Part shown: positions 30,834 through 63,397 of the stretch, piece after piece
How positions within the stretch are numbered: position 1 is the stretch's first letter
How the letters are laid out: every line of letters starts with the position of its first letter
IMG/VR virus record: IMGVR_UViG_3300037466_003234
Reading direction: 5' to 3' (one strand)
DNA length: 64,000 nt
Origin: a virus
Taxonomy: Duplodnaviria > Heunggongvirae > Uroviricota > Caudoviricetes
Made by a program: the position numbers and the translations under genes
The notes under the pieces: model-generated
What the model saw: the letters and a program-made list of their open reading frames with translations, nothing else
What the model was told of the DNA's origin: nothing
Databases searched by the model: none

Positions 30834-31105
30834 AGAGTTAATTCCTCTAACCAAGGGTATCGTAGCTGATATATCATAGCGTTAAAAGCCAAGGAAAAGC
30901 TTCCGCTAACTTTTTGCTAATATAATTATTATAATTAAATTATAGTAACTGTATTGAGTGAATAAATTCGTAAGAACAACTCACTCTCGTGAGGTGTATC
31001 ATATCTTTTTTTAAAAAATGAAAGAAAACGACAAAAAAAGAAAATTTATTTTTGCTATTGTCTTATTTTCTTAAATCAACTATCCTTATGCGAATAGGAG
31101 TAAAT

Positions 31106-32983
31106 ATGGATTTAAATACACTTTTTAGCATCGGTCTACACTACGGTGTTTACCTCATTGGTTTTATTGCGTTTTTGGTTTTGGTCTACAAGGCTCTTGG
31201 CATTGTAGTTATCGGTGAATCCGAAGTTGGTGTTGTTACTAAGAAAATTTCTAATAGGAATCTTCCTCCAGGTCGCGTCATTGCTACGAACGGCGAAGCT
31301 GGCGTTCAAGCTGATACGTTGAGCCCTGGTATGCACTTTGGCTACTGGCCATTTGTTTACAAGGTTGACTTGGCACCGCTTACGAGCATTGCTCCAGGCG
31401 AAATTGGCCTAGTGATGGCAATCGATGGTAATCAGATCCCAGCCAATCGCTTGCTTGGCCAAGGTGTTGATTGTGATAACTTCCAGTCCGCAAAGGCTTT
31501 CTTGGCTAATGGCGGTGAAAAAGGTAAGCAACTTGCTATCTTGACCGCTGGTAAGTATCGTATCAACCCAGCATTGTTTAAGATCGTAACGGCTCCTGTA
31601 ACCGTTATCGCTGCAAATCAAGTCGGTATCGTTACAACCTCTGACGGTGTACCTCTGGAACAAGGCGAAATCGCAGCGGCAACCGTTCCTGGCCACAATA
31701 ACTTCCAAGATATTCAGAAGTTCATTGATGCTGGTGGCAAACGCGGTCTTCAAGAGCAAGTTATCTTGGCAGGTCAATGGAACTTGAATCCATGGTTTGC
31801 TCAAGTAAAGACGGTTCCAATGACGAACGTGCCAATCGGACACGTAGGCGTTGTGACCTCTTACGTTGGTAAAGCTCACGTCGATATCTCTGGCTCTGAA
31901 TTCAAGCACGGCGACCTTGTGGACCAAGGCCATAAGGGTGTTTGGGCAAAACCTCTCTATCCTGGCTTGCATCCGATCAATACGGACACTATGAAAGTGG
32001 ATCTCGTCCCTACGACCAACGTCGTCCTTAACTGGGCAACAAATCGTAACGAATCCCATATGCTCGACAAGAACTTGTCTAGCATCACGGTTCGTTCGAA
32101 AGACGGATTCAGCTATAACCTCGACGTTTCTGTGGTTATTCACATCGGCGCTATGGAAGCCGCTCGCGTGATCTCTCGCATGGGCAGCATGTCTGGCCTT
32201 ATCAGCCAAGTCCTTGAGCCTACGATTGGTAACTACTTCAGAAACTCTGCACAAGAGTTCGCAGCCTTGGACTTCCTCAAGACTCGTACTGAAATGCAAC
32301 AAAATGCCGCTCACTTCGTTCATGAAGCTTTGAAGCAATATGACGTGGAAGCTGTCGATACCCTTATTGGCGATATCGTTCTCCCACAACAATTGCTTGA
32401 AACTCAGACACAACGTAAGCTTGCTGAAGAAATGCAAAAGACCTATGAGATCCAACAAGCTTCTCAGAAACAGAAAGAGGCTCTCAATCGCCAAACTGCT
32501 GTGACTGAAATGCAAAAGGATCTTGTGGCCTCTGAACAAGCTGTTAAAATTGCTCAGCAAAACGCAGAAGCAAGCATTCGTAAGGCAGAAGGTGATACCA
32601 AGGTCGCTGAACAGCAAAGCTTGCAAAAGATTCGTCTTGCTGAAGCTGAAGCTGCTCAGATCCAAAAGAAAGCTCTTGCTGAAGCTGAAGGCCTCAAGGC
32701 TCGCGGCTTGGCAGAAGCAGAAGCGATCAAGGCTAAAGGTAACGCCCAAGCTGAAGCATATCAAAACGGCGCTAAAGCAATGGGTGAAAAGAACTTCACC
32801 ATGCTCGAAACTATGTCCGTCATGGCTAAGGAAAAGATGAAGGTCATCCCAGACCTCGTAGTCAATGGCGGTGGTGAAGGCGGTGGAAGCGGCACCGGTC
32901 TCAGCATGCTCAACTTGCTGATGGCTGAAATGGTTAAGGAAAAGTTTCTTGATCCTAAACAGGAAAAGAAAACGACTGCCTAA
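31106..32983 (+). CDS. flotillin-like SPFH/band-7 membrane protein (FloT/YqiK-like)
   Basis: N-terminal TM helix LHYGVYLIGFIAFLVLVY. Long SPFH-like region. C-terminal Ala/Glu flotillin repeats AEAEAAQIQKKALAEAEGLKARGLAEAEAIKAKGNAQAEAYQ. AGGAG SD. Confidence 0.75.
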   Translation: MDLNTLFSIGLHYGVYLIGFIAFLVLVYKALGIVVIGESEVGVVTKKISNRNLPPGRVIATNGEAGVQADTLSPGMHFGYWPFVYKVDLAPLTSIAPGEIGLVMAIDGNQIPANRLLGQGVDCDNFQSAKAFLANGGEKGKQLAILTAGKYRINPALFKIVTAPVTVIAANQVGIVTTSDGVPLEQGEIAAATVPGHNNFQDIQKFIDAGGKRGLQEQVILAGQWNLNPWFAQVKTVPMTNVPIGHVGVVTSYVGKAHVDISGSEFKHGDLVDQGHKGVWAKPLYPGLHPINTDTMKVDLVPTTNVVLNWATNRNESHMLDKNLSSITVRSKDGFSYNLDVSVVIHIGAMEAARVISRMGSMSGLISQVLEPTIGNYFRNSAQEFAALDFLKTRTEMQQNAAHFVHEALKQYDVEAVDTLIGDIVLPQQLLETQTQRKLAEEMQKTYEIQQASQKQKEALNRQTAVTEMQKDLVASEQAVKIAQQNAEASIRKAEGDTKVAEQQSLQKIRLAEAEAAQIQKKALAEAEGLKARGLAEAEAIKAKGNAQAEAYQNGAKAMGEKNFTMLETMSVMAKEKMKVIPDLVVNGGGEGGGSGTGLSMLNLLMAEMVKEKFLDPKQEKKTTA

Positions 32984-41212: not shown

Positions 41213-41288
41213 TGGTCCGAGGGGAGGGAATTGCACCCTCATTTCCGGGTTCGGAAGCCGGCGTTTTAGCTAATTAAACTACCCAAGG
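41213..41288 (-). tRNA. tRNA-like gene, anticodon CCG (Arg) predicted, non-canonical
   Basis: CCA encoded. T-arm GAGGG-TGCAATT-CCCTC. D-stem GTTT/AAAC. Anticodon loop TTCCGAA with a C-C mismatch at the closing pair. Acceptor mismatches at 3-70 and 4-69. Confidence 0.45.
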
Positions 41289-41375
41289 GGCTGTGATGGC
41301 TTTGGGTGAAAAATCAGGTTGTTCGGGCTTGCCAGTAACTCAAATTAGCTATATCGCAAGTACACTTGGAATAAA

Positions 41376-41451
41376 TGGTCCGAGGGGAGGGAATTGCACC
41401 CTCATTTTCTCCTTCACAGGGAGATGTTCTATCTCGCTAAACTACCCAAGG
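41376..41451 (-). tRNA. tRNA-His (GTG), shares acceptor and T-arm with the previous gene
   Basis: Perfect anticodon stem TCTCC/GGAGA, loop CTGTGAA. 3' 31 nt and 5' 14 nt identical to the 41213 gene. CCA encoded. Confidence 0.55.
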
Positions 41452-41461
41452 GACGTTAAAG

Positions 41462-41538
41462 TGGCGGGGCCAGGGGGATTCGAACCCCCGATCTCTGCCG
41501 TGACAGGGCAGCGCATTAGGCCGCTATGCTATGACCCC
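41462..41538 (-). tRNA. tRNA-Asp (GTC)
   Basis: Canonical cloverleaf. T-loop TTCGAAT. Anticodon loop CTGTCAC. CCA encoded. Confidence 0.8.
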
Positions 41539-41543
41539 AAAAA

Positions 41544-41620
41544 TGGCGCACTCCCTGAGACTCGAACTCAGCGCTTACGGTTTAACAGACCGTCTTCTCC
41601 ACCCGGTAGAACTGGAGTGC
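41544..41620 (-). tRNA. tRNA-Asn (GTT)
   Basis: Acceptor GCACTCC/GGAGTGC. Anticodon loop CTGTTAA. T-loop TTCGAGT. CCA encoded. Confidence 0.8.
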
Positions 41621-41625
41621 AAACT

Positions 41626-41702
41626 TGGTAGCGGGTAGAGGTATCGCACCTCTCTGCTAGGCTTATGAGACCTGGCTGGATCTATCTCCAGTCGAACCCG
41701 CT
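41626..41702 (-). tRNA. tRNA-Met/Ile2-like (CAT), non-canonical D-arm and T-loop
   Basis: Acceptor AGCGGGT/ACCCGCT. Anticodon loop CTCATAA. T-arm AGAGG-TGCGATA-CCTCT. Two extra nt before the D-stem. Confidence 0.45.
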
Positions 41703-41723
41703 AAATTAACTTTCCTTTCATTC

Positions 41724-41750
41724 CCCGCCAGGCCCTACTTGCCTGGCGGG
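41724..41750. other. perfect 10-bp GC-rich hairpin between tRNA genes
   Basis: CCCGCCAGGC-cctactt-GCCTGGCGGG. Possible processing or termination element. Confidence 0.35.
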
Positions 41751-41760
41751 ATTTCAAACA

Positions 41761-41836
41761 TGGTGCCTGCTCTTGGTTCCGCTCCAAGTCCTCTAGCTCT
41801 TCAGGCTAGCGCTTCTACTAAGTTAGCTTAGCAGGC
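41761..41836 (-). tRNA. tRNA-Phe (GAA)
   Basis: Acceptor GCCTGCT/AGCAGGC. Anticodon stem CTAGC/GCTAG, loop CTGAAGA. T-loop AGCGGAA atypical. Confidence 0.6.
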
Positions 41837-41841
41837 AAAAT

Positions 41842-41917
41842 TGGTCGGGAAAGCACGATTCGAACGTGCGACCTCCTGTATCCAAAACAGGCCGTCTGAC
41901 CACTGACTTATTTCCCG
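41842..41917 (-). tRNA. tRNA-Pro (TGG)
   Basis: Acceptor CGGGAAA/TTTCCCG. Anticodon stem CCTGT/ACAGG, loop TTTGGAT. T-arm GCACG-TTCGAAT-CGTGC. CCA encoded. Confidence 0.8.
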
Positions 41918-47900: not shown

Positions 47901-49190
47901 TTACTGCTGTGGGGATTCCGCAGCGTCCTCCTGGGCCGCTGCAGGAGGAGCGGCAGGCGTTTCAGCTTGCTGCCCTGGCTGTTCCGTTGGATCGGCTGGA
48001 GTTTCTTCGGATGGTCCAAGGCCTAGCATCTTTGCCATTTCAATCATGGCCTTAAGCATCATGATCGAAGCTTGATATAGCTGCGGCGCTTGTTCTTTTG
48101 CGCGTTCGAGAATGTCTTTGCTTTGCTTAAAGCCATCAAGGGCTTCGGACACCATTCCAACTACTTTTTCGCGTGCGATCTGATCTGCGTGCTGATCAAG
48201 TCCACCTTGGAGAACTTGCGTGAGATCTGGACCTTGACCTTGATCTTCTTCAGAAAGGCCCATGTCCGCAGGAACGTTTTCTTGGTCTCCTGGGAGCGCC
48301 TGCCCATTCACTGGAAGGGCAGCGTCATCTGACATCGGATCTACTGGAGCTTCTTGATCAAAATGTTGCAGAATATTCTGCATAGCTTGAGCAGTCTCAG
48401 GATCATCTTGTTCTGATCCTTCTGCTGATCCGACGGCTGTGGGGTCTTGCCCAGCAGCGACTTTAGCGTCGTACTCAGCGCAGTGGGGGCAGTCACAACT
48501 GTCTGCACCACCGCGTTCGTCGTATTCTTTACAGTATGGGCAATTGTCGTGATCGTGTTCTTCGCTATTTCCTTCAGCTTGCTTAGCATCGTATTCCTTA
48601 CAATATGGGCAGTCATCGCCGCATGCATGTCCGTCAGCGCCATCCATTTCTGCGCAATAAGGACAATCGTGATGATCATCAGCCGGAGCCGGTTGATCGG
48701 TTGTGGTTTGAACGTCGTCTGATTTTTGTTCTGGAGTCATGTAAGCTTCTCCTAGTTTCTTTTGTTCGGCAGAAGCGTCATCTGCTCCAAGGCTTGATTG
48801 GGCTAGCGCATAGTCCTGCTCTACACTGTCGTCGTAGTTAACGACTTGGTCTTTGCCGCGAAGTTTTCCGACCATGAGGGATTTGCCAGCCTGAGAAAGG
48901 TCTTGTCCAACGCCGACAGTCATGGTTAGGCCTGTCGCGAACTGATAGTCTTTGCGAAGTTCTTCAATGTGGTCCATGGCTTGAGGAGGAACCTGAAAGG
49001 TGCCTTCGTCGCCACCGCCAGAAATGCGGGTTCCGCCCATTTCAGCTACCCAGCGGGTAACGATTTCATGGCCGAGATCAATGCGCTGAGAGGCCTCGCT
49101 GAGACCTTGTGCGTCGTTTGCTAAAATTGCTCTTCCGACCAAACGACCGGCGTTGTCGCCGTCGTAGGCCATAATTAACATGTTATCCAC
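47901..49190 (-). CDS. acidic virion-module protein with N-terminal DxD...GGDE palm-like motif and four CPxC zinc-knuckle repeats
   Basis: IMAYDGDNAG...ISGGGDEGTFQV at residues about 7-62. DCPYCAEMD / DCPYCKEYD / NCPYCKEYD / DCPHCAEYD repeats. Long acidic tail. Confidence 0.55.
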   Translation of the reverse strand: MDNMLIMAYDGDNAGRLVGRAILANDAQGLSEASQRIDLGHEIVTRWVAEMGGTRISGGGDEGTFQVPPQAMDHIEELRKDYQFATGLTMTVGVGQDLSQAGKSLMVGKLRGKDQVVNYDDSVEQDYALAQSSLGADDASAEQKKLGEAYMTPEQKSDDVQTTTDQPAPADDHHDCPYCAEMDGADGHACGDDCPYCKEYDAKQAEGNSEEHDHDNCPYCKEYDERGGADSCDCPHCAEYDAKVAAGQDPTAVGSAEGSEQDDPETAQAMQNILQHFDQEAPVDPMSDDAALPVNGQALPGDQENVPADMGLSEEDQGQGPDLTQVLQGGLDQHADQIAREKVVGMVSEALDGFKQSKDILERAKEQAPQLYQASIMMLKAMIEMAKMLGLGPSEETPADPTEQPGQQAETPAAPPAAAQEDAAESPQQ

Positions 49191-51565: not shown

Positions 51566-51767
51566 TTTTTTCCAATAGATCTTTGATCTCTTCTATCTTT
51601 CTATCAGCGCTCTCCAGCGAAGAAGACATAAGTTTAACCATTTCTTGGAATTGCTGCTTTTTAACCTCTTTGTCGCTCCAAGACTTTTCGTTAATTTTGC
51701 TTTCTAATCTTTTATTCGCTGCTTTTGGCATAATTAACTCTCGATGCGCGTTTTCTTGGCTCCGCAA
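51552..51767 (-). CDS. small charged protein
   Basis: ORF overlapping neighbours. Confidence 0.4.
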   Translation of the reverse strand: MRSQENAHRELIMPKAANKRLESKINEKSWSDKEVKKQQFQEMVKLMSSSLESADRKIEEIKDLLEKNGRS

Positions 51768-52237
51768 GCCATTGCCTTCTCGATCGTCGCGCCGGCCAAA
51801 GCCCTTGCAAATTCTTTTGGCATTTTTAGTTCTTCAAACACGATCGTATCGCCTCTGAGTGATCCGGTAGCGGTACCGATTCTCTCGCCATGCTTTTGGA
51901 CATGGAATTCGATCTTTTCGTTGGTCTGAACTGAATAGATATCATGGCCAGACTTCCTAAGTTCATCAGAAAGGAAGTGCGAGTGCTGGTCCACGGTAGG
52001 ATTTACGGAATCTTCGCTCTTCATAAGGGTAGGCTGGAATTGAGGGTAAGCTTTTTCGATGTTATACTTAACGATAGCTGGGTGAGAGCCTGCAGCGAGA
52101 GCTTCTTCGCGAGCCTTTCCCTTTGGCTTGCCGATACCAATCCAGAATCCGCCCTTAGTGCGAATCATCTTGACTGGAGCGTTGTCGAGCATGCCAGCTT
52201 CTTCAATTGAATGAATTTCGTTTGGAGTAATATTCAT
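51734..52237 (-). CDS. hypothetical protein
   Basis: ORF. Confidence 0.5.
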   Translation of the reverse strand: MNITPNEIHSIEEAGMLDNAPVKMIRTKGGFWIGIGKPKGKAREEALAAGSHPAIVKYNIEKAYPQFQPTLMKSEDSVNPTVDQHSHFLSDELRKSGHDIYSVQTNEKIEFHVQKHGERIGTATGSLRGDTIVFEELKMPKEFARALAGATIEKAMACGAKKTRIES

Positions 52238-52238
52238 G

Positions 52239-53372
52239 TTATTTCCCTTTATTGTACGCGTCGTTAATTTTCTTAACGTGCCAATGATGGCTTATATTCT
52301 TGTGCTCTTTTTGGGCTCGATAGGTACCTTTGATGCCCTCTAACCATGCGTAACCTATCGCCGATGGATCATGACCGAAATGATGCTCAAGTCTTGCGAG
52401 ATGGCGGGAGGCTACTTGGTCCTCTAGCTCAGGATGATCTTGCATATAGTGATGCAAGTCTTGACCGTGTAGCATTAACGCCTTTTTGTGCTTGGCCTTG
52501 AGATCGGCACTGAGCCCGACAGTGTCGCGGATGATGGCAGGAGTAAGGCCGTATTTTCCGTACGCCTTTTCGCCATGATGCATTCCGCCTAACGCGTGGT
52601 GATCCATCTGTTTGCCATTGCTACTTTCGACCTGTGCGATCGTATGAAGCATTTTTTGGCTAGAATATGCAGGAATAGTTTGCTGGTGAGCAATATCGTT
52701 GTTGACCGGAGCCATCGATTGGCCCGGAGTACCTACTGCGACTGCGGCAGCTGCGCCGAGTGCAGTTCCTAAGTTTTTGAGAGCACCTTTTTCTAGCGGA
52801 TCGCCCAAGTCTTGCTCGGACGCTGCTAGTTTTTCATACTCCTCATGCTGTTTAGGAGGATGGAAGGTGTCAATTACCTTATGACCATGCCTTAACTGGG
52901 CAGGTCCAAATTCAATGCCTGCCTCGTGGGCAGTTTTTGGTTTTTTAGCGAAAACGTTATCAAACGTCTTTTTGTCCACTGTGATGTGGACAGGGTGATC
53001 TGGAGAGTGTCCAGGGTAGCCGTATTGAGAGAGCTTCTTTCTGTTCTCTACAAAGTGTTTTTGATGCTCGCCGAGCAGCTTAATGGCGTAGGTGTCGTTT
53101 CCGAACCTATCCTTAAGCACTGCGGGCTCAATATGAGTCTTCTTAGGATCAATCGCTGGGTAGTGAAGGCCCTTAGCCGCCTCATGAGCTTGCGCAAGAG
53201 GATCTTTGGTGTGGTCGAACATTTTAATGGTAGAGTGATATGCAATGCCATTGTCCGGTCTATGGGTTTGACCGTTAATGGTTACTGGATGACCCAAAAG
53301 AATACCCTGCTCGGCGATCTTTTTATACGCCTGCGGATCTTCAGCTTTGAGGAGTTCCAGAAAGTAGTCCAT
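52239..53372 (-). CDS. fusion protein: N-terminal 2H-phosphoesterase-like domain plus C-terminal lytic transglycosylase (SLT)-like domain
   Basis: Two H-x-T-x motifs about 85 aa apart (AYHSTIKM and PVHITVD), as in LigT/2H. C-terminal TIAQVESSNGKQ...GGMHHGEKAYGKYGLTP resembles the SLT catalytic ES and GLMQ region. Confidence 0.55.
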   Translation of the reverse strand: MDYFLELLKAEDPQAYKKIAEQGILLGHPVTINGQTHRPDNGIAYHSTIKMFDHTKDPLAQAHEAAKGLHYPAIDPKKTHIEPAVLKDRFGNDTYAIKLLGEHQKHFVENRKKLSQYGYPGHSPDHPVHITVDKKTFDNVFAKKPKTAHEAGIEFGPAQLRHGHKVIDTFHPPKQHEEYEKLAASEQDLGDPLEKGALKNLGTALGAAAAVAVGTPGQSMAPVNNDIAHQQTIPAYSSQKMLHTIAQVESSNGKQMDHHALGGMHHGEKAYGKYGLTPAIIRDTVGLSADLKAKHKKALMLHGQDLHHYMQDHPELEDQVASRHLARLEHHFGHDPSAIGYAWLEGIKGTYRAQKEHKNISHHWHVKKINDAYNKGK

Positions 53373-54707: not shown

Positions 54708-55424
54708 ATGAAAGTAATCGCTGTAAGTGGCTGGAAAGGTTCAGGAAAAGACACTCTAGCTGCGCATTTGATCGATAAATTTGGTGCAGTCCGCACTTCT
54801 TTTGCTGACCCTCTGAAAGATATGGTGGCCGAAGAATACGGTATTGACCGTACCTCCCTGGACGACCCAGGCCGCAAGGAGCGAGCCCTTCTTCACCTCC
54901 CAGTGAATCCACAAGACCCATATAGTCGCATGATTGCCGAATTCCTCATTAAGGAATTTCGTACTACTCAAGGCATTCAGCCGACAGACTTCACCTATCA
55001 AAACGGTGATTTTTATGGCGTGATCGGAGACATCTCTACTGGACAAACCGTTCGCGTTTATTGGACCCCTCGCGCATTGGCCATTTTGAAGGGTTCTACC
55101 AATCGTTCCGTTCGCTCAAACTACTGGGTGAAGAGAGCGGTTGAGGAAGTTGCTCGCAAAGCCGCAGATGGCTTCGAGCTTCACGTTATTTCTGACCTTC
55201 GCTATCAGTCTGAAATGCAACAATTGAAAGACACCTTTGGATCGGACGTAGTATTCGTAAGAGTCAATCGTTTCGAAGAAAGCCCATCCAAAGATCCTTC
55301 GGAAAGAGATTTGGATAACGCGACCTTCGATTTCTACGTGAACAATAAGGGTACGAAAGAGGAAGCTTTCGCTAGGATGGAAGACATCCTAAGACAAGTG
55401 ACCGTAAACGCCCAAAGCGCGTAA
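54708..55424 (+). CDS. deoxynucleoside monophosphate kinase (T4 gp1-like)
   Basis: MKVIAVSGWKGSGKDTLAAHLIDKFG parallels T4 Dnk MKLIFLSGVKRSGKDTTADFI. P-loop present. TAGGAG SD. Confidence 0.7.
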   Translation: MKVIAVSGWKGSGKDTLAAHLIDKFGAVRTSFADPLKDMVAEEYGIDRTSLDDPGRKERALLHLPVNPQDPYSRMIAEFLIKEFRTTQGIQPTDFTYQNGDFYGVIGDISTGQTVRVYWTPRALAILKGSTNRSVRSNYWVKRAVEEVARKAADGFELHVISDLRYQSEMQQLKDTFGSDVVFVRVNRFEESPSKDPSERDLDNATFDFYVNNKGTKEEAFARMEDILRQVTVNAQSA

Positions 55425-55431
55425 TAAGTTA

Positions 55432-55472
55432 GGGGCCAGTAGCCGACGATGCTGGCCCCTATTCATTTTCTA
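55432..55472. terminator. hairpin between convergent genes (bidirectional terminator candidate)
   Basis: AGGGGCCAG-loop12-CTGGCCCCT then ATTCATTTTCT. Confidence 0.45.
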
Positions 55473-56136
55473 CGTAATATTCGCCATCTTCCGATTTAAC
55501 GATTTTCTTTGGATTTCCTTCGGTCGGTAAATACTGACCGTCCAAAACCGCCGCATTTACCCATACTTTGCCGTCTTTGTAGGTATAGCCGCGAGACTCG
55601 TGAATGTGACCAAAGATATGGAGTTTCACATTGGTCTCCATGATCCTCTTATAGAGGGCTGGGCAGCCAACGTTTTTATTTTGATGTGGAATAAAATCTA
55701 GGCGATCCCAAGCGGGGCCATGGGTAATAAGGATTTCGGTATCCTCTGGGATCATATCCCAGTGGGGTTGAATTTCGATCTGATTGCGATTAAATGCCCA
55801 ATTGCAGAATTCTGGCTGAACAGGCGAACCCCAGATCTTAATTCCTTCGATTTCGATTCCGCTATCGTTAAGGAGTATGATCCCGCGATTCTTGCACTCG
55901 TCTGCGCAGAGGCTTGGATTTTCCTCAAAGAGCCAGTCGTGGTTGCCTGGAACGAATATCTTATGCTTGTAATTCTGTTTGGCATACCAGTCCAAAAAGT
56001 TCATTACTTCGCTAACTCTGCCGCCAAGGGTGGCGTCGCCAGCGTGAATAAGAATGTCTCCGCCAGGCATGGTAAATTTGTTATGCCTATTATGGGTGTC
56101 CGAAATAGCGTGAATTTTGATACCTTCTAAACTCAT
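55459..56136 (-). CDS. calcineurin-like metallophosphoesterase
   Basis: HAISDTHNRH, HAGDATLGG and VPGNHDW (GDxHG / GDxxDRG / GNH[DE]). Also ITHGPAW and GHIHE. Confidence 0.7.
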   Translation of the reverse strand: MSLEGIKIHAISDTHNRHNKFTMPGGDILIHAGDATLGGRVSEVMNFLDWYAKQNYKHKIFVPGNHDWLFEENPSLCADECKNRGIILLNDSGIEIEGIKIWGSPVQPEFCNWAFNRNQIEIQPHWDMIPEDTEILITHGPAWDRLDFIPHQNKNVGCPALYKRIMETNVKLHIFGHIHESRGYTYKDGKVWVNAAVLDGQYLPTEGNPKKIVKSEDGEYYVENE

Positions 56137-57679: not shown

Positions 57680-58564
57680 TTACTTGAGTAAGTGGCTGAT
57701 TTTCTCAATACTTACTTGGCCCGTGCCGTAGTAAGCGTTAATTGCATCTCTGTCAGACTTGGTTAAAGTTGGATCTGCTGCTTTCTTCGTTAGAATCTGA
57801 GTGATTTCACTCTTAGTGAAGGTTTTCGCTTCGGCTTGAACGTTTTCGCTCTTAGCGACAACGTCGAGAGAAGTGATTGCCTTACCTACTGGAGCGGATC
57901 TCTTAGACATTTTGGTCAAGATTTCCGTAACTCCATCTAACGTTTTCTTAAGTTCTTCGATCTTTGCATCTTTTGCAGCGATCTCAGACTTTAGAAGGTC
58001 GGTCTCTTCGGACTTAACTTCGACCGAAACTTCCGTTTCAGACTTAGTCATTGCTGGGGCTGGAGCTTCAGCTTGCTGAGCTGCACCCTTAGCGTCTAGA
58101 GCCTTACGAACGGCGTCGTGGTGAGCCTTAAGTTCACCATGCGACATGGAGCTATACATCTGGTGCATATGTTCCATATCTTCGTCGTCGTACCCGTGAT
58201 CGTCGCCTTCTGCAGCTGGAGCTTCAGGAGCCTTAGCTTCATCAGCTGGGGCTTCTTTCTTATCTTCAGCTGGAGGAGCTTCTTTGCTTTCTTCCTTAGC
58301 TTCAGGGGCTTTTTCGCCTTCTTCTGCTTTAGGAGCTTCTTCAGCGGGTTTTTCTTCTTTCTTTTCTTCTGCTTTTGGCTCTTCCTTTTTCTCTTCAGGC
58401 TTCTTTTCGTCTTCAGCCTTAGCGAGAGGAGCAGCATCAGCAGCAGCGGTCGTAGATTCATCGGACTTAGCGAGCTTGAAGTCTTCTTCAGCTTTAGCCA
58501 AGTGAGCCGTGAACTCTCTTTCCACGTCTTCAATTAATTTTGCTAGTTCCTTCTCGGTGTACAT
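57680..58564 (-). CDS. scaffolding-like protein
   Basis: Highly charged Lys/Glu/Ala/Pro-rich helical protein directly upstream of the capsid gene. Confidence 0.5.
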   Translation of the reverse strand: MYTEKELAKLIEDVEREFTAHLAKAEEDFKLAKSDESTTAAADAAPLAKAEDEKKPEEKKEEPKAEEKKEEKPAEEAPKAEEGEKAPEAKEESKEAPPAEDKKEAPADEAKAPEAPAAEGDDHGYDDEDMEHMHQMYSSMSHGELKAHHDAVRKALDAKGAAQQAEAPAPAMTKSETEVSVEVKSEETDLLKSEIAAKDAKIEELKKTLDGVTEILTKMSKRSAPVGKAITSLDVVAKSENVQAEAKTFTKSEITQILTKKAADPTLTKSDRDAINAYYGTGQVSIEKISHLLK

Positions 58565-59250: not shown

Positions 59251-60753
59251 ATGGCCACATTCATTCACGGCATTGCCGCATCAGAAAATATCGATTCCTC
59301 TGGCGAAGTAGTTTCCATCGTCGGTATGGATATTTCTTCACTAGACAAGACTGGCGTGTTCAATTGGGAGCACGATCAGGCCACAGGTCCGAATGGCGAG
59401 AAATTAACGATTAAGCTACCTTCCAATGTTGTAGGTAAGATCTTGAAAGCAAAGAAGATCTTTTCCGAACAAGACTGTGAAGATGAGCACCAGCTTTATT
59501 TCTGGAATAAGATCAAAACCCCATACCTTTACGTTATGGGCGAACTTTTGGACGATTATAAGGATTCTGCCAAGGAAGTAGCTGGAATGTTCCGCTATGA
59601 CGCAGATAGGCAGAATCAAAATGAACACGACATTATTGGTTTTTCGATCGAAGGCAATAACCTCAAAAAAGAGGGAATGACCATTACCCGCTCGATCGCC
59701 CGAAAATTAACGATCACAACCGGCCCTTGCAATAAAGCTTGTGTGGCCGAAATAATGCCTGATCAGGGTGAAAGTCAGATTAAAGACGATATTGATAGCA
59801 TCTTCAAATCCGAAGAAAGCTTTGATATTCAACTATTTAAGTCTGACAAGCTTGATCAGATGTACGAAGACTTCTTGGCCAAGAAAGAGGAAGCCATGAA
59901 TAAAGCAGATCCAAAAACCCTCAATGGCCCAGCTAAGGCACCGATGGCGCCTATGGCTCCTGCCCAGACCACGACCGCCGGTCGAGTCCATGGTTGGCAT
60001 GCTTCTATTAGCCAGCATAGCGGTGGAACTAACGTTAATTTCGAACATCCGCAGCATGGCATGGTCACGGTTCATAAGAATCCTGAGTCCAATCACTACG
60101 AAGTAAAGCATAATGGCGCTCACGCAGGTCTTATGGGTCACAAAGGTATTCATCCAGATGCCGCCTCTGCCGTAGCCCACGCTAAAAACTACATCCAAGC
60201 AGTTAACTCCGGCAAGGTAGCAGGCAAACGCATGATGAACGTTAATTCCAATATGGGAATTGACAAAAAACCTGTCGCCAAGGCCGATACCGCTGGATCT
60301 GCCAACGTAGCTCCATCACAATTAACAGGCACCGCAGCCCTCGCCAAAGAAGATCTTGATAAGGCAGACGCAGGTGTTTACAATCAAAAAGGAGTTCACC
60401 TTCCTCCTTTGAGCGATAAGAAGGGTGGAACCAGCGTAATGGGCACTCATGTCAGAAACCCTTCTAGTGCCGGAGCAGGATCTAAAGAGATGGCTCGCCG
60501 CCATGCTCAAAATGGCCTAAAACAGCTCAAAGAAATGCCTAAGCCGAAATTAACGAAGTCTGACTGGCTTGATCGTGCGGACGAAGCTTACCAAAACTGG
60601 GATAAAAAAGAACAATTTGAAGCATTTATGCATTCCCGCCTTCCGCACCTAGCTAAGGGTGAGGTTGAAGCTATCGGAAAAACGTTAGCGTTGAAAAAAT
60701 CCCTTGATTTCGAGGCCGCTTTAGGTAAACTGATTAAGAAACAAGAAGAATAA
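59251..60753 (+). CDS. prohead protease-like (HK97 U35/S78 family) N-terminal domain fused to long low-complexity C-terminal region
   Basis: N-terminus FIHGIAASENIDSSGEVVSIVGMD resembles the protease pattern G-Y-A-S...D..G-[DE]-V-V. Divergent from the capsid operon. Confidence 0.4.
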   Translation: MATFIHGIAASENIDSSGEVVSIVGMDISSLDKTGVFNWEHDQATGPNGEKLTIKLPSNVVGKILKAKKIFSEQDCEDEHQLYFWNKIKTPYLYVMGELLDDYKDSAKEVAGMFRYDADRQNQNEHDIIGFSIEGNNLKKEGMTITRSIARKLTITTGPCNKACVAEIMPDQGESQIKDDIDSIFKSEESFDIQLFKSDKLDQMYEDFLAKKEEAMNKADPKTLNGPAKAPMAPMAPAQTTTAGRVHGWHASISQHSGGTNVNFEHPQHGMVTVHKNPESNHYEVKHNGAHAGLMGHKGIHPDAASAVAHAKNYIQAVNSGKVAGKRMMNVNSNMGIDKKPVAKADTAGSANVAPSQLTGTAALAKEDLDKADAGVYNQKGVHLPPLSDKKGGTSVMGTHVRNPSSAGAGSKEMARRHAQNGLKQLKEMPKPKLTKSDWLDRADEAYQNWDKKEQFEAFMHSRLPHLAKGEVEAIGKTLALKKSLDFEAALGKLIKKQEE

Positions 60754-60838: not shown

Positions 60839-60914
60839 GGGGTCGTAGCTCAGTTGGTAGAGCGGTAGCTTTGCAAGCTATAGGTCAAGGGTTCGAGTCC
60901 CTTCTTCTCCACCA
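60839..60914 (+). tRNA. tRNA-Ala (TGC) with imperfect acceptor stem
   Basis: D-arm GCTC-AGTTGGTA-GAGC. Anticodon loop TTTGCAA. T-arm AAGGG-TTCGAGT-CCCTT. CCA encoded. G3-U70 present; mismatches at 5-68 and 6-67. Confidence 0.6.
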
Positions 60915-60957
60915 AGTTTAATTTGCCGCTTGCGGGCGGGGCCTGCCGCAACAGGTC

Positions 60958-61029
60958 GCTATCGTCGTCTAGGGGCCTAGGATACCGTCATTTCGGGCGG
61001 AGACGCTGGTTCAAATCCAGCCGATAGCT
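60958..61029 (+). tRNA. tRNA-Glu-like gene with aberrant anticodon loop
   Basis: Acceptor GCTATCG/CGATAGC. D-arm TCGTCTAGGGGCCTAGGATA and T-arm GCTGG-TTCAAAT-CCAGC parallel E. coli tRNA-Glu. Anticodon region CCGTCATTTCGGGCGG is 1 nt short (6- or 8-nt loop). Confidence 0.4.
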
Positions 61030-61142: not shown

Positions 61143-61922
61143 ATGATTTATCTCAATGACCAACCGGTCAATACTACCATTTTCCCAGACAACACTTCTC
61201 AGGTCTGGAAGCTTCCCAAAGATATCTTTTTTAAATCCTATATTTCAATTAAATGGGCTTTTTCTAATGAAGGCGAGTTTTTACAGCTTGCTCAGCTAAA
61301 GCATCTTTTGAGTAATAAGTGCCAATACGGTCCATTTATCACTCTTACCTTAACCTATTTGCCATATGGCAGACAAGATAAGGAAGTTTGCAATGAGGCC
61401 ACTTTCGCCCTTCGCACTTTTGCCGCTCTGCTCAACACCTTGCAATTCGACTCTGTCATCATTCATGATCCTCACAGTAAAATTGCGCTGGATTTGATCA
61501 ATAATTCTCATGCAGTTTATCCAGAGAGAAAAATTTTAGACGCTAGAGTGGCCACAAATTCTCCGCTACTCTGCTATCCCGATAAGGGCGCTGTAAGTAA
61601 ATATTCTGAGACGTATCCTGGGTGGGATTACATTTACGGTCAAAAAGTCCGCGATCAATTGACTGGAAACATTACGCACTATGAGCTTATCGGTGATTGT
61701 GTCGGCCAAAACGTACTTATCGTGGACGATATCTGCGATGGCGGAATGACTTTTATTTTGCTTGCCAAAAGCTTGCTGGCAGCAGGTGCTAAAGAGGTAA
61801 ACCTTTTTGTCACCCATGGAATTTTCTCCAAAGGGACGAGAGTTCTATTTGAAGCAGGCATTAAACGCGTGTTTACCCAAGATGGTGAAGTCGGGCCACG
61901 CGAAACCTCAATTCAGTTCTAA
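61143..61922 (+). CDS. PRPP-synthetase-family pyrophosphokinase (candidate ADP-ribose pyrophosphokinase, Adps-like)
   Basis: VLIVDDICDGGMTFILLAKSLLAAGAKEVNLFVTHGIFS is the PRPP-binding / phosphoribosyltransferase motif. Directly upstream of a NAMPT-family gene. Confidence 0.7.
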   Translation: MIYLNDQPVNTTIFPDNTSQVWKLPKDIFFKSYISIKWAFSNEGEFLQLAQLKHLLSNKCQYGPFITLTLTYLPYGRQDKEVCNEATFALRTFAALLNTLQFDSVIIHDPHSKIALDLINNSHAVYPERKILDARVATNSPLLCYPDKGAVSKYSETYPGWDYIYGQKVRDQLTGNITHYELIGDCVGQNVLIVDDICDGGMTFILLAKSLLAAGAKEVNLFVTHGIFSKGTRVLFEAGIKRVFTQDGEVGPRETSIQF

Positions 61923-61936
61923 TTATAGGAGATTAT

Positions 61937-63397
61937 ATGAAGAACTTATCTGCAATGTTGTTGTGTGATTTTTATAAAATTAGCCATAGGGCTATGTATC
62001 CAGTGGGCACTGAAGTCGTTTATTCGACCTGGACGCCTCGCGCTTCTCGCATGAATGGAGTGGAAAAGGTCGTTGCCTTTGGCTTCCAAGCTTTCTTGAA
62101 AGAGCTTAACGAATATTTTGACGTTAATTTCTTCGGTAGAGATAAGGAAGAGGTTGTTTTTGAATATTCTCGTATTGTCAAACACACCTTAGGTGTCGAA
62201 AATCCTGAAACTAAGCATATCGAAGATTTGCATGATCTTGGATACCTGCCTTTGTCGATCAAGGCCCTCCCAGAAGGAACCTTGGTACCACTTCGCGTTC
62301 CAATGCTTACGATCCAAAACACCGACCCTCGCTTCTTCTGGCTCACCAACTACATTGAGACCTTGGCCTCATGCCAACTCTGGCAGCCTTGCACGTCGGC
62401 AACGATTGCACGCGAATATCGTCAGATCCTTGATAAATGGGCCATGAAGACCGTTGGAAATACTGATTTCGTTCCTTTCCAGGGCCACGACTTCTCTATG
62501 CGCGGCATGAGTTCGCTTGATTCAGCGATGCTCAGTGGCATGGGCCACCTCACCCAATTCGTTGGCACCGACACGATTCCTGCTATCCAGGTAGCTGAAA
62601 AGTATTATGGAGCTAATGTTCAGACGGAAATGGTAGGAACGTCAATTCCTGCAACGGAACACTCGATCCAATGTGCTTATGGTAACGACGTTGAATACTA
62701 CAAAAACATGATCAATCGCGTCCATCCAAGTGGCTTCGTATCGATCGTGTCTGACGGATACGACTTCTGGGATGTCATCACTCGCGTAATTCCTTCCTTG
62801 AAACGCGATATCTTGAAACGCGATGGTCGCGTTGTTGTTCGCCCTGACTCTGGAGATCCAGTTCTTATTGTTTGCGGTGATCCAAATGCTCCAGTTGGAA
62901 GCCCTGAATATAAGGGTGCAATTGAGTGTCTTTACGAAACTTTTGGTGGAACCGTCACTAAAGAAGGTTATAAAGTGCTCGATAGCCATATCGGCTTGAT
63001 TTACGGTGACGCTATTACCCTTCGCCGCGCAGAAGAGATCTGCGAGCGTTTGGCTGCCAAGAGATTTGCTTCGATTAATGTTGTGTTCGGTATCGGTTCT
63101 TATACGTACCAATACAATACTCGTGACACCTTCGGATTTGCCCTTAAGAGCACGCTCTGCGTGATTAACGGCGAAGAAAAGCATATCTTTAAAGACCCTA
63201 AGACCGATAACGGCATCAAAAAGAGCCAAAAAGGTCGCGTGGCCGTCTTGAAGGATGGTAAAGAAGGTCTTAAATTCGTTGACGGCCTTGGCCTTCAAGA
63301 TAACCTCGTTAGTGATCAGCTTGTCGAGATTTATCGTGACGGCGAAATCCTTAAAGAGTATACTTTCGAAGAGATTCGCGCTCGCCTGAAGGGCTAA
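61937..63397 (+). CDS. nicotinamide phosphoribosyltransferase family protein (NAMPT/NadV-like; candidate nicotinamide ADPR transferase, Namat-like)
   Basis: N-terminus LLCDFYKISH and overall about 486 aa are NAMPT-like. Adjacent to the Prs-like gene. Confidence 0.75.
   Translation: MKNLSAMLLCDFYKISHRAMYPVGTEVVYSTWTPRASRMNGVEKVVAFGFQAFLKELNEYFDVNFFGRDKEEVVFEYSRIVKHTLGVENPETKHIEDLHDLGYLPLSIKALPEGTLVPLRVPMLTIQNTDPRFFWLTNYIETLASCQLWQPCTSATIAREYRQILDKWAMKTVGNTDFVPFQGHDFSMRGMSSLDSAMLSGMGHLTQFVGTDTIPAIQVAEKYYGANVQTEMVGTSIPATEHSIQCAYGNDVEYYKNMINRVHPSGFVSIVSDGYDFWDVITRVIPSLKRDILKRDGRVVVRPDSGDPVLIVCGDPNAPVGSPEYKGAIECLYETFGGTVTKEGYKVLDSHIGLIYGDAITLRRAEEICERLAAKRFASINVVFGIGSYTYQYNTRDTFGFALKSTLCVINGEEKHIFKDPKTDNGIKKSQKGRVAVLKDGKEGLKFVDGLGLQDNLVSDQLVEIYRDGEILKEYTFEEIRARLKG

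What the first reader, a model, noticed from the sequence alone, without database searches (positions are those of the whole stretch)
52239..53372. Virion-module fusion of a 2H-phosphoesterase-like domain with a lytic-transglycosylase-like domain
The N-terminal ~190 residues carry two H-x-T/S-x motifs about 85 residues apart (YHSTIK, VHITVD), the signature of LigT/2H phosphoesterases. The C-terminal third has an SLT-like catalytic region (AQVESSNGKQ...YGKYGLTP). Its position among head-tail genes suggests an ejected virion protein. 2H enzymes elsewhere hydrolyse 2',3'-cyclic phosphates or 2'-5' oligoadenylates. A virion-delivered 2H domain could destroy cyclic-oligonucleotide immune signals on entry while the SLT domain opens peptidoglycan.
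Basis: partly seen in the sequence, partly recalled or inferred. Interest (0 to 1): 0.75.

Follow-up and report, generated by a model that had tools for sequence, protein, structure and literature searches.

The report
Phage 2H phosphoesterase–transglycosylase cargo protein
This phage gene does fuse a 2H-type phosphoesterase to a cell-wall-cutting lytic transglycosylase, and it is a compact member of the known "polyvalent" class of phage proteins thought to be packed into virions and injected to disarm the host, so it is a good test case but not a new principle.

Summary

- The linker carries a conserved K/A-S-E motif and a Gly/Ala-rich hydrophobic segment.
- The same motif is over-represented in the scaffold-like protein (9 against 2.1 expected). 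It brackets 2H domains across the family, so it is probably a prohead-protease cleavage site.
- The two modules recombine freely with VTC, NUDIX, GNAT, ART and kinase domains in proteins of up to 2,471 aa. In Myxococcus phage Mx1 the same slot holds a 1,479-aa GNAT+ART-PolyVal+NUDIX+SLT protein.

This is a polyvalent protein in the sense of Iyer et al. 2017, who already predicted signal-degrading 2H domains. Virion delivery and the substrate remain inferred. I rate it a new variant of a known kind, of moderate interest.

The parts
52239..53372 (-). Whole gene, 377 aa: 2H phosphoesterase domain, processed or hydrophobic linker, then lytic transglycosylase domain
   Evidence: ORF list. There are 166 close homologues and 1,070 representative clusters at E<=1e-3. 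AF2 model pLDDT 85.
53337..53354 (-). N-terminal motif LLKAED (residues 7-12), a putative protease site after E11
   Evidence: In A1, K9 is kept in 49/49 non-gap rows and E11 in 42/54. It lies between helices 2-8 and 13-22 of the model. The same K-[AS]-E motif precedes internal 2H copies in larger proteins. Cleavage is inferred, not shown.
52818..53348 (-). 2H phosphoesterase domain (residues about 9-185)
53226..53237 (-). 2H motif 1, H46-S-T48-I
   Evidence: H is kept in 175/175 copies and T/S in 175/175. It starts strand 46-52 in the model. T4 Acb1 has the identical HSTI.
52977..52988 (-). 2H motif 2, H129-I-T131-V
   Evidence: H is kept in 175/175 copies and S/T in 174/175. It starts strand 129-132. 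hhalign registers it with PHITL of T4 Acb1 and of E. coli ThpR.
52815..52832 (-). Linker motif KLAASE (residues 181-186), a putative prohead-protease cleavage site after E186
   Evidence: It is conserved in an otherwise gappy, disordered linker: K181 in 41/54 rows, S185 in 29/54, E186 in 38/54. A K[AST]E/ASE motif lies within -8..+30 of the 2H domain end in 131/155 copies, against 15% background. Cleavage is inferred.
52722..52796 (-). LEKG motif plus Gly/Ala-rich hydrophobic segment (residues 193-217, LEKGALKNLGTALGAAAAVAVGTPG)
   Evidence: K195 is kept in 51/54 rows and G196 in 45/54. The best 15-mer hydropathy of the protein is here, at 1.61. Across 215 relatives the median best 17-mer is 1.25 against 0.08 for controls, with 2.4 K/R on the N side against 0.98 on the C side. 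Standalone versions of the C-module begin at this point. pLDDT is below 50 and the segment is not helical in the model.
52242..52682 (-). Lytic transglycosylase (SLT / GH23-like) domain, residues 231-377
52623..52628 (-). Catalytic E249-S250 of the transglycosylase
   Evidence: E is kept in 225/226 copies and S in 220/226.
59251..60753 (+). Putative prohead (head maturation) protease, the proposed processing enzyme
   Evidence: The N-terminal 190 aa match the Mx1 'putative prohead protease' (6e-34) and the SPO1 gp3.2 head maturation protease (4e-6). phrog_1028 gives 1.2e-4. It carries two copies of the motif.
57680..58564 (-). Scaffold-like protein just upstream of the MCP, rich in the same K-[AS]-E motif
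   Evidence: It has 9 motif copies against 2.1 expected from 2,000 composition-preserving shuffles; none reached 9. The Mx1 counterpart has 3 copies.
51734..52237 (-). Conserved downstream 167-aa gene with a central LMKSE motif, possibly a co-packaged protein
   Evidence: One base separates it from the target. Homologues follow the target's homologues in L002, L004 and L008. The motif is kept in L008 as AIMKSEGL.

Best explanation
The gene encodes a small 'polyvalent' virion cargo protein of an Mx1-like myovirus with a genome of about 170 kb. The proposed sequence of events follows, with each step marked as shown or inferred.

1. It is made late together with head and neck proteins. The operon position and translational coupling are shown.
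2. It is taken into the prohead and cut by the prohead protease after Glu in K/A-S/A-E motifs, at E11 and E186. This is inferred. Cutting would release a free 2H enzyme of about 20 kDa (residues 12-186) and a C-terminal fragment that begins with LEKG, a Gly/Ala-rich hydrophobic segment, a Pro/Gln-rich spacer and the transglycosylase.
3. At infection the pieces leave through the tail with the DNA. This is inferred.
4. The hydrophobic segment has a positive-inside charge bias, which predicts N-in/C-out. It would sit in the inner membrane and place the transglycosylase in the periplasm. There Glu249 cleaves the MurNAc-GlcNAc bonds of peptidoglycan to clear the entry path. The fold and catalytic residue are shown; the placement is inferred.
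5. The 2H enzyme reaches the cytoplasm and uses its two His-x-Thr/Ser motifs for metal-independent transesterification or hydrolysis of a 2',3'-cyclic, 2'-5' or 3'-5' phosphodiester. The fold and motifs are shown. The most likely substrate class is nucleotide second messengers of CBASS, type III CRISPR or related defences, as for the 2H enzyme Acb1. The substrate is inferred and carries the lowest confidence of any step.

The SLT module is the constant part of this locus. The N-terminal enzyme is exchangeable arms-race cargo. The confidence of 0.5 is for the statement as a whole. By part it is about 0.95 for the domain identities, about 0.55-0.6 for packaging and processing, and about 0.35-0.4 for the signalling-nucleotide substrate.
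For: - Fold and catalytic residues.
- Late virion operon with coupled junctions. The slot is conserved in relatives L002, L004 and L008.
- Polyvalent context. In Mx1 (MCP 55% identical) the same slot holds a 1,479-aa protein with GNAT, ART-PolyVal (PF18760, 2.8e-16) and NUDIX domains. It also contains the same C-module (HMM 5.2e-18, residues 1107-1233).
- Module shuffling. The linker+SLT module ends proteins of up to 2,471 aa. The 2H module occurs alone or next to VTC, NUDIX, GNAT and ART-like domains.
- Cleavage motif. The scaffold-like protein has 9 copies against 2.1 expected. There are none in the sheath, tube or the 1,176-aa protein. The motif lies at the 2H start in 100/169 copies (9% background) and at the 2H end in 131/155 (15% background), but inside the core in only 20/169. 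It sits exactly between Pfam domains in P0121, P0175 and P0124.
- Protease. A homologue of SPO1-type head maturation proteases is encoded nearby. T4, phiKZ, 201phi2-1 and SPN3US prohead proteases all cut head and ejection proteins after Glu at short motifs (PMC5694885).
- Standalone C-modules start where the cut would leave the fragment. One such 'standalone' copy lies in the same virion slot directly behind a 2H+cargo gene.
- Hydrophobic segment statistics and charge bias.
- Substrate analogy. Acb1 is a 2H enzyme that degrades CBASS signals (PMC9117128) and 2'3'-c-di-AMP (PMC12657230). Iyer et al. 2017 predicted this role for 2H domains of polyvalent proteins. A CBASS plus type III-B island of M. 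xanthus stops Mx4 but not Mx1 (PMC11506125).
Against: - There are no proteomic data for any member, Mx1 included. Packaging, cleavage and ejection are therefore all unproven.
- The motif is absent from 24/155 domain ends and 69/169 starts. The MCP has one non-terminal copy.
- The specificity of SPO1-type proteases was not established here.
- The hydrophobic segment is only moderately hydrophobic: 17-mer KD is at least 1.6 in under 5% of relatives. It is unstructured with pLDDT about 40 in the model, so a true transmembrane helix is uncertain.
- Pfam Acb1 hits only 2/54 relatives, at 0.025.
- hhalign to T4 Acb1 aligns only the motif-2 region.
- Mx1 itself carries NUDIX rather than 2H in this slot.
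Confidence: 0.5

Rival explanations
1. The delivery route is the same, but the 2H domain works on RNA rather than on signalling nucleotides. It could be a Usb1-like RNase that trims or cleaves host RNAs. Alternatively it could be a LigT/ThpR-like 2',3'-cyclic phosphodiesterase that heals tRNA or mRNA ends cut by host anticodon nucleases and other metal-independent RNase defences.
For: - Usb1 is the top Foldseek PDB hit.
- One relative hits Pfam 2_5_RNA_ligase2 at 0.0061.
- Iyer et al. 2017 list the RNase reading first for polyvalent 2H domains.
- The phage carries many tRNA genes. Mx1 annotates an 'RNA ligase A' fragment and a TROVE/Ro-like protein.
Against: - No RNA ligase or polynucleotide kinase was found among the larger ORFs scanned in this window.
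- Iyer et al. note that polyvalent-type 2H domains never associate with RNA ligases.
- The fused partners in relatives are nucleotide-directed enzymes such as VTC/CYTH-like and NUDIX, not RNA-repair enzymes.
Confidence: 0.3
2. The protein is not packaged. It is a late, membrane-tethered protein of the infected cell. The internal Gly/Ala-rich segment acts as a signal-anchor, as in SAR endolysins. This would put the transglycosylase in the periplasm as the phage's lysis enzyme, while the 2H domain stays on the cytoplasmic face.
For: - The Gly/Ala-rich, weakly hydrophobic segment has a positive-inside bias directly upstream of a muralytic domain.
- Short standalone versions look like signal-anchored SLT proteins.
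- No other endolysin was recognised in the 64-kb window or in Mx1 28-78 kb. Both surveys are very incomplete.
Against: - The segment is internal, after a folded 185-aa domain, and in relatives after up to about 2,300 aa.
- The gene sits between neck-like and virion structural genes. No holin or spanin was recognised beside it in the window or in relatives, but no dedicated holin/spanin search was run.
- A 'standalone' copy lies in the same virion slot behind a cargo gene, not in a lysis cassette.
- Partners such as ART-PolyVal, GNAT, ParB-like and NUDIX are typical of injected proteins.
- The domain-bracketing K-S-E motif is shared with the scaffold-like protein and the protease.
Confidence: 0.12
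3. It is a virion protein of the tail rather than the head, for example carried in the tail lumen or at the tip like muralytic tape-measure or hub proteins. In that case the K-S-E motifs are not prohead-protease sites.
For: - The upstream neighbour hits a PHROG labelled 'tail fiber protein' (phrog_772).
- The gene lies between the MCP and the sheath, where neck and tail genes are expected.
Against: - The motif is absent from every recognised tail protein of the window but enriched in the scaffold-like protein and present in the protease.
- Giant multi-enzyme relatives of up to 2,471 aa are hard to fit in a tail lumen together with a tape measure.
- The Mx1 counterpart has the domain set of head-packaged polyvalent proteins.
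Confidence: 0.12

Closest known systems
Polyvalent proteins of phages and conjugative elements (Iyer, Burroughs, Anand, de Souza, Aravind 2017, PMC5512222). The nearest concrete example is Myxococcus phage Mx1 WNM70333.1, annotated 'NUDIX hydrolase', 1,479 aa.
   Same: - Unrelated enzymatic domains share one polypeptide encoded among late virion genes.
- The catalogue of that paper includes both 2H and lysozyme-fold domains, and the predicted role for 2H is RNase or degradation of defence nucleotides.
- The Mx1 protein occupies the same slot, after homologues of the 128- and 277-aa genes. It contains the same hydrophobic+SLT module (5.2e-18) and K-S-E motifs at its domain borders.
   Different: - This protein has only two enzymatic domains, and it has no zincin-like metallopeptidase, which that paper proposed as the processing enzyme.
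- Processing here would be by the prohead protease at K/A-S-E sites.
- The text of the paper describes 2H fused to MuF or portal domains, not to a transglycosylase.
- Mx1 carries GNAT+ART+NUDIX+ParB-like cargo and no 2H.
Acb1, the anti-CBASS 2H phosphodiesterase (T4 gene 57B; Erwinia phage FBB1, PDB 7t26/7t27; Hobbs et al. 2022, PMC9117128)
   Same: - Both are phage-encoded 2H folds with two H-x-T motifs. Motif 1 is the identical HSTI, and motif 2 is HITV against HITL.
- The plausible role is the same: cutting cyclic oligonucleotide signals.
   Different: - Acb1 is a free protein of about 150 aa with a C-terminal lid and is not known to be virion-borne.
- The domain here is about 175 aa and fused to SLT.
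- It does not match Pfam Acb1 (no hit for the target; 0.025 in 2/54 relatives).
- It is structurally closer to LigT-like enzymes.
- Its activity is untested.
LigT/ThpR/YjcG and Usb1 RNA-end 2H phosphoesterases
   Same: - They share the same two-motif catalytic layout.
   Different: - There is no detectable sequence-profile relationship. A PDB profile search finds none, and hhalign to ThpR aligns 17 columns around motif 2.
- This domain is not linked to RNA ligases.
- It is embedded in a virion cargo protein.
Virion-borne lytic transglycosylases: the T7 gp16 N-terminal SLT domain (own knowledge: Moak and Molineux) and phiKZ gp144 (PDB 3bkh)
   Same: - T7 gp16 is likewise an ejected head-core protein that ends up in the cell envelope.
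   Different: - Here the SLT domain is C-terminal and preceded by a conserved LEKG+hydrophobic segment.
- It serves as the constant module to which variable enzymes are attached.
- The motifs diverge from the canonical GLMQ and AYNAG (YGLTP and GYAWLEG).
- Pfam SLT does not reach significance for this protein itself.
SAR (signal-anchor-release) endolysins, for example P1 Lyz and phage 21 R (own knowledge)
   Same: A Gly/Ala-rich, weakly hydrophobic segment with positive charges on its N side lies immediately upstream of a muralytic domain.
   Different: - The segment is internal, not N-terminal.
- The gene is in a virion operon, not a lysis cassette.
- The catalytic domain is SLT-type.
- Relatives carry up to about 2,300 aa upstream.

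Membership tests
2H phosphoesterase superfamily | Two H-x-T/S-x motifs, one per lobe | tested here: met
   The motifs are H46-S-T-I and H129-I-T-V. Across 175 domain copies H is kept in 175/175 at both positions, and T/S in 175/175 and 174/175.
2H phosphoesterase superfamily | Bilobed alpha+beta fold with each motif on a central beta-strand | tested here: met
   [not shown]
2H phosphoesterase superfamily | The two catalytic histidines are juxtaposed across the cleft | not testable with these tools
The feature is implied only by the fold superpositions.
2H phosphoesterase superfamily | Match to an existing sequence model (Pfam LigT_PEase, 2_5_RNA_ligase2, Acb1 and others) | tested here: not met
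   The target has no hit at E<=1. Among 54 relatives, 2_5_RNA_ligase2 hits 1 (0.0061) and Acb1 hits 2 (0.025), all below the curated cut-offs. This is an unmodelled clade.
Acb1 (anti-CBASS nuclease) family | Compact 2H protein of about 150 aa with a C-terminal lid that hydrolyses cyclic di- and trinucleotides | tested here: inconclusive
   [not shown]
Family 1 lytic transglycosylases (SLT, PF01464, GH23) | Catalytic Glu in an E-S motif at the end of the first helix of the lysozyme-like fold | tested here: met
   E249-S250 lie in helix 238-250. E is kept in 225/226 copies and S in 220/226.
Family 1 lytic transglycosylases (SLT, PF01464, GH23) | Lysozyme-like all-alpha fold | tested here: met
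   [not shown]
Family 1 lytic transglycosylases (SLT, PF01464, GH23) | Match to Pfam PF01464 and the canonical GLMQ and AYNAG motifs | tested here: inconclusive
   The target itself has no hit. PF01464 hits 21/54 relatives, best 1.5e-5, and 3 relatives carry precomputed PF01464. The motifs are variant: YGLTP (G275, L276 and P278 conserved) and GYAWLEG (W343 and G346 near-invariant).
Family 1 lytic transglycosylases (SLT, PF01464, GH23) | Product is 1,6-anhydroMurNAc (transglycosylase rather than hydrolase) | not testable with these tools
   This needs biochemical product analysis.
Polyvalent proteins (Iyer et al. 2017) | Two or more domains of unrelated biochemical activity in one polypeptide of a phage or plasmid | tested here: met
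   A phosphoesterase and a peptidoglycan transglycosylase share the chain. Relatives add VTC, NUDIX, GNAT, ART-like and PI3/4-kinase-like domains.
Polyvalent proteins (Iyer et al. 2017) | Encoded with late or virion genes; homologues share hallmark polyvalent domains | tested here: met
   The gene lies in a virion operon. The syntenic Mx1 protein has PF18760 ART-PolyVal at 2.8e-16, above the cut-off, and shares the C-module.
Polyvalent proteins (Iyer et al. 2017) | Packaged in the virion and injected with the DNA | not testable with these tools
   No proteomics exist for this clade. Support is only indirect, through the protease-type motif.
SAR endolysins | N-terminal weakly hydrophobic signal-anchor; gene in a lysis cassette with a holin or pinholin | tested here: not met
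   The segment is at residues 197-215, behind a folded domain. The neighbours recognised are virion genes in the window and in three related loci. No dedicated holin search was run.

The most novel reading that the evidence does not exclude
The virion operon carries a matched pair. The first element is a pre-packaged, protease-released 2H phosphodiesterase that destroys host cyclic-nucleotide alarm signals from the first moment of infection. The second lies five genes downstream: a phage-encoded minimal CRISPR polymerase (mCpol, 47901-49190, with DGD and GGDE motifs intact). It might make replacement 'decoy' nucleotides, so that guard systems of the Panoptes type, which fire when Acb1-like enzymes deplete their 2'3'-c-di-AMP, stay silent. 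That would be the 'anti-anti-anti-defence' anticipated in PMC12657218. Nothing here excludes it. The only support is co-occurrence in the window and in two relatives plus the published Acb1-Panoptes link.
Probability: 0.06. Interest if true: 0.85.

Novelty: new variant of a known kind. Interest (0 to 1): 0.45.

Why it matters
Known phage enzymes that destroy immune nucleotides (Acb1, Apyc1, AcrIII-1) are made after infection starts. A version that arrives ready-made inside the virion would show that signal degradation can begin before any phage gene is expressed. It would also give the 2017 'polyvalent protein' prediction its first concrete, small and tractable test object: two domains, clear catalytic residues and predicted cut sites.

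The family is large, with 1,070 representative clusters. It shows a simple grammar: a constant hydrophobic+transglycosylase module, exchangeable enzymes, and K-S-E borders. That grammar could be used to mine metagenomes for new counter-defence enzymes.

The 2H clade is not covered by any Pfam model, so it is currently invisible to routine annotation. If the substrate turns out to be RNA ends instead, the locus would still document virion delivery of an RNA-directed enzyme.

Tried and rejected
- Single-sequence searches of the target found nothing significant: Pfam, PHROGs and PDB phmmer, tblastn against 50,697 phage genomes, and a PDB search with the family profile. The domains are visible only by structure or by family-internal conservation.
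- hhalign of a 175-sequence N-domain alignment against T4 Acb1 and E. coli ThpR aligned only the motif-2 neighbourhood. No 2H clade could be assigned.
- The afdb50 fold library was unavailable, so BFVD was used instead.
- I looked for the paper behind PDB 9q2g/9q2y (the phage BCSR5 phosphodiesterase). None was found in the library.
- I looked for Mx1 virion proteomics. The genome announcement has none.
- The genomic context of a standalone 2H protein (P0183) was not on record. P0200 lies on a 964-bp contig and is uninformative.
- The PDB sequence search with the protease N-domain gave nothing. Homology to SPO1-type proteases came from tblastn.
- The first, narrow motif [KA]SE gave only a modest inside/outside-domain contrast: 1.4 against 3.7 per 1,000 aa. 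The positional analysis with K[AST]E|ASE was much clearer.
- Scanning Mx1 28-78 kb for an annotated endolysin found none. Most CDSs there are 'hypothetical', so this does not bear on the endolysin rival.
- I rejected the idea that the HxT motifs are chance.
- I rejected the idea that 'standalone' SLT copies mark a lysis cassette.
Full report
**1. The observation**

The ORF is real: 52239..53372 on the minus strand, ATG start, 377 aa. The quoted strings are at the stated places: YHSTIK (H46), VHITVD (H129, 83 residues later), AQVESSNGKQ (246-255) and YGKYGLTP (271-278).

Sequence-only methods say nothing about the protein on its own. Pfam gives no hit. The best PHROG hit is a family of unknown function at E 0.009. 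PDB phmmer returns only noise, and tblastn against 50,697 phage genomes finds no match.

The protein does have many relatives in metagenomes. There are 166 proteins at E<=1e-3 in the 90%-clustered collection, on contigs of up to about 171 kb. An exhaustive profile search finds 1,070 representative clusters.

**2. Both domain calls hold**

An AlphaFold2 model built on a 54-sequence alignment has mean pLDDT 85.3. Residues about 9-185 and 231-377 are mostly above 90, and the linker 188-230 is below 50.

- N-domain, an unbroken series of 2H phosphoesterases: YjcG 9.0, human Usb1 8.8, D. radiodurans CPDase 8.8, PH0099 8.6, LigT 8.6, rotavirus VP3 PDE 8.4, ASCC1 8.3, plant CPDase 8.1, penguinpox cGAMP PDE 7.7, Acb1 6.8/6.6, MHV ns2 6.1.

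Foldseek agrees.

Catalytic residues are almost invariant:
- In 175 copies of the N-domain, H46 is kept in 175/175, T/S48 in 175/175, H129 in 175/175 and S/T131 in 174/175.
- In 226 copies of the C-domain, E249 is kept in 225/226, S250 in 220/226, W343 in 224/226 and G346 in 226/226.

The two histidines each start a predicted beta-strand. I could not measure their distance because model coordinates are not exposed.

No existing sequence model covers the 2H domain. Only 3 of 54 relatives touch Pfam 2_5_RNA_ligase2 or Acb1, and only at sub-threshold scores. Pfam SLT reaches 21 of 54.

**3.

Between the domains, in an otherwise gappy and disordered stretch, two short elements are conserved.
- The first is K-L-A-A-S-E (181-186).
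- The second is L-E-K-G followed by a Gly/Ala-rich hydrophobic run (193-217).

A third, similar motif, L-L-K-A-E-D, sits at residues 7-12.

The motif K-[AS]-E (or A-S-E) is absent from the sheath, the tube, the 1,176-aa protein and most other virion proteins of the window. It occurs 9 times in the scaffold-like protein just upstream of the MCP, against 2.1 expected from 2,000 shuffles, none of which reached 9. It occurs twice in the putative prohead protease. The Mx1 scaffold-like protein has three copies.

Across the family the motif marks domain borders:
- Within -15..+8 residues of the 2H start in 100/169 copies, against 9% background.
- Within -8..+30 of the 2H end in 131/155 copies, against 15% background.
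- Inside the roughly 150-aa core in only 20/169 copies.

In multi-domain relatives it falls exactly between Pfam domains. One example is P0121: 2H | GKSE193 | VTC 225-472 | GKSE502 | NUDIX 612-718 | SLT.

The N-terminal domain of the 500-aa ORF at 59251-60753 is homologous to the Mx1 'putative prohead protease' (6e-34) and to the SPO1 gp3.2 head maturation protease (4e-6). Prohead proteases of T4, phiKZ, 201phi2-1 and SPN3US all cut head and ejection proteins after Glu at short motifs. They often cut several times in propeptides, and they cut themselves (PMC5694885).

My inference is that K/A-S/A-E is the cleavage motif of this phage group's prohead protease, and that the target is cut after E11 and E186. 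This is not shown.

**4. The hydrophobic segment**

The segment is the most hydrophobic part of the protein; its best 15-mer scores 1.61. It is conserved as a feature in 215 relatives, with a median best 17-mer of 1.25 against 0.08 in control windows. Basic residues are concentrated on its N side (2.4 against 0.98). A Pro/Gln-rich spacer of about 20 residues separates it from the SLT domain.

Short standalone versions of the C-module begin at this point, so they look like signal-anchored transglycosylases. The charge bias predicts an N-in/C-out orientation, which would put SLT in the periplasm and anything upstream in the cytoplasm.

Two points count against a real transmembrane helix. Hydrophobicity is only moderate. 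The model shows no helix there, with pLDDT about 40.

**5. Family context**

The MCP of the window is 55% identical to that of Myxococcus phage Mx1 (169.6 kb) and only about 25% identical to SPO1-like and other large myoviruses.

In Mx1 the same slot lies after homologues of the 128- and 277-aa genes. It holds a 1,479-aa protein annotated 'NUDIX hydrolase'. Pfam finds GNAT, ART-PolyVal (PF18760, 2.8e-16, above threshold) and NUDIX domains in it. My C-domain HMM finds the same SLT module at residues 1107-1233 (5.2e-18), preceded by a similar hydrophobic run. A ParB-like DGNHR motif follows. No 2H domain is detected.

The profile search shows that the two modules recombine:
- The linker+SLT module ends proteins of 900-2,471 aa.
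- The 2H module occurs alone (about 180 aa), or next to VTC, NUDIX, GNAT and ART-like domains.

Synteny around the gene is conserved in three related contigs. A 206-aa 'standalone' SLT protein lies in the same slot, overlapping by 11 nt the end of a 635-aa 2H+ART-like cargo gene. It is therefore not in a lysis cassette.

BFVD holds two uncultured-phage proteins with the same layout: A0A6M3SW15 (368 aa) and a VTC-bearing one.

**6. Comparison with what is known**

This is the pattern that Iyer et al. (2017, PMC5512222) named polyvalent proteins: unrelated enzymatic domains in one polypeptide, encoded with virion genes and proposed to be injected with the DNA.

That paper already lists 2H and lysozyme-fold domains among the modules. 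It notes that polyvalent-type 2H domains never accompany RNA ligases. It proposes that they are either Usb1-like RNases or degraders of 2'-5' oligoadenylate and cyclic-nucleotide defence signals.

Acb1 later proved that a phage 2H enzyme degrades CBASS signals (PMC9117128). It also degrades 2'3'-c-di-AMP (PMC12657230).

Four things differ here:
- The architecture is a 2H-linker-SLT fusion. The 2017 text describes 2H fused to MuF or portal domains.
- There is no embedded metallopeptidase, and processing appears to rely on the prohead protease.
- The hydrophobic+SLT module acts as the constant element.
- The 2H clade is unmodelled.

**7. Mechanism and confidence**

- Shown: the gene, two folds, intact catalytic residues, a late-operon position with coupled junctions, modular recombination, and the motif statistics.
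- Inferred, about 0.55-0.6: head packaging, cleavage at E11 and E186, and ejection.
- Inferred, about 0.5: membrane insertion of the hydrophobic segment with SLT in the periplasm.
- Inferred, about 0.35-0.4: the 2H substrate is a nucleotide second messenger. The RNA-end or RNase alternative stands at about 0.3, because the closest structures are LigT/YjcG/Usb1.

One piece of context fits but proves nothing. An M. xanthus island with two CBASS systems and a type III-B CRISPR system protects against Mx4 but not against Mx1 (PMC11506125). Mx1, however, has NUDIX rather than 2H in this slot.

**8. Verdict**

The protein is a new architectural variant within a known class. Its interest is moderate. 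It is not surprising to a specialist, but it is a compact and well-defined object with which to test virion delivery of a signal-degrading enzyme. Its family offers a simple grammar for finding further counter-defence cargo.

Noticed in passing
window 47901-49190 (-): This 429-aa ORF lies in the same virion operon, five genes downstream of the target. It has an N-terminal minimal CRISPR polymerase domain (PF18182 mCpol, 2.6e-10, above the cut-off) with DGD and GGDE motifs intact. Four CPxC(A/K)E(Y/M)D repeats (CPYC three times, CPHC once) and an acidic tail follow. Relatives carry mCpol at the same place (562 and 619 aa in L002 and L004), and Mx1 annotates a 'nucleotide cyclase' beside its protease. 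A phage-encoded mCpol next to a 2H phosphodiesterase may relate to Panoptes-type guards.
   Followed up: partly
window 57680-58564 (-) and 59251-60753 (+): The scaffold-like protein has 9 K-[AS]-E motifs. The putative prohead protease has a C-terminal extension of about 310 aa. In Mx1 the protease is a 1,239-aa multi-domain protein containing a stretch (FAKAMEAGNFNAAPSTLQGG) that resembles the MCP N-terminus of the window (MKALEAGSYNAAPGQLAQGA). Relative P0175 starts with the protease-like GVAASE and then carries 2H+VTC, so cargo may also be fused to the protease.
   Followed up: partly
window 51734-52237 (-): The 167-aa gene directly downstream of the target has no family hit. It is conserved after the target's homologues in L002, L004 and L008, and it keeps a central (L/I)MKSE motif. 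It may be another processed head protein.
   Followed up: partly
window 61143-63397 (+): A ribose-phosphate pyrophosphokinase-like gene (phrog_619, 1.7e-63) is followed by nicotinamide phosphoribosyltransferase (phrog_448, 7.8e-201). This is an NAD salvage pair of the kind linked to countering NAD-depleting defences.
   Followed up: no
window 54708-56136: A dNMP kinase (plus strand) and a calcineurin-like metallophosphoesterase interrupt the head-neck operon between the MCP and the 128-aa gene. The same pair (Metallophos plus Thymidylate_kin) is present in L002. In T4, acb1 (57B) also lies beside ipI, 57A, the gene 1 dNMP kinase and neck genes 3, 2 and 4. This may be a coincidence.
   Followed up: no
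L004 7330-7998; L008 4104-5123: A GIY-YIG/NUMOD homing endonuclease gene in L004, and an unrelated 339-aa ORF in L008, are inserted at the junction just upstream of the cargo gene. This slot appears to be an insertion hotspot.
   Followed up: no
P0074 (270 aa) and P0114 (287 aa), relatives of the target: These variants keep the 2H domain and the KLAASE motif. They lack the hydrophobic segment and the catalytic E-S region, and retain only the C-terminal helices of the SLT domain. This suggests those helices have a non-catalytic role, perhaps in incorporation.
   Followed up: no
window 41213-41917 (-) and 60839-61029 (+): There are eight tRNA-like genes in two clusters. One call at 60958-61029 has an undetermined identity (anticodon read as 'tt').
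   Followed up: no
window 31052-32983 (+), 13863-14678 (+), 15350-16162 (+): Elsewhere in the window are a 643-aa protein with an SPFH/Band 7 domain (9.2e-23), a DUF932 protein (also annotated in Mx1) and a GP88-family protein. These were not examined further.
   Followed up: no
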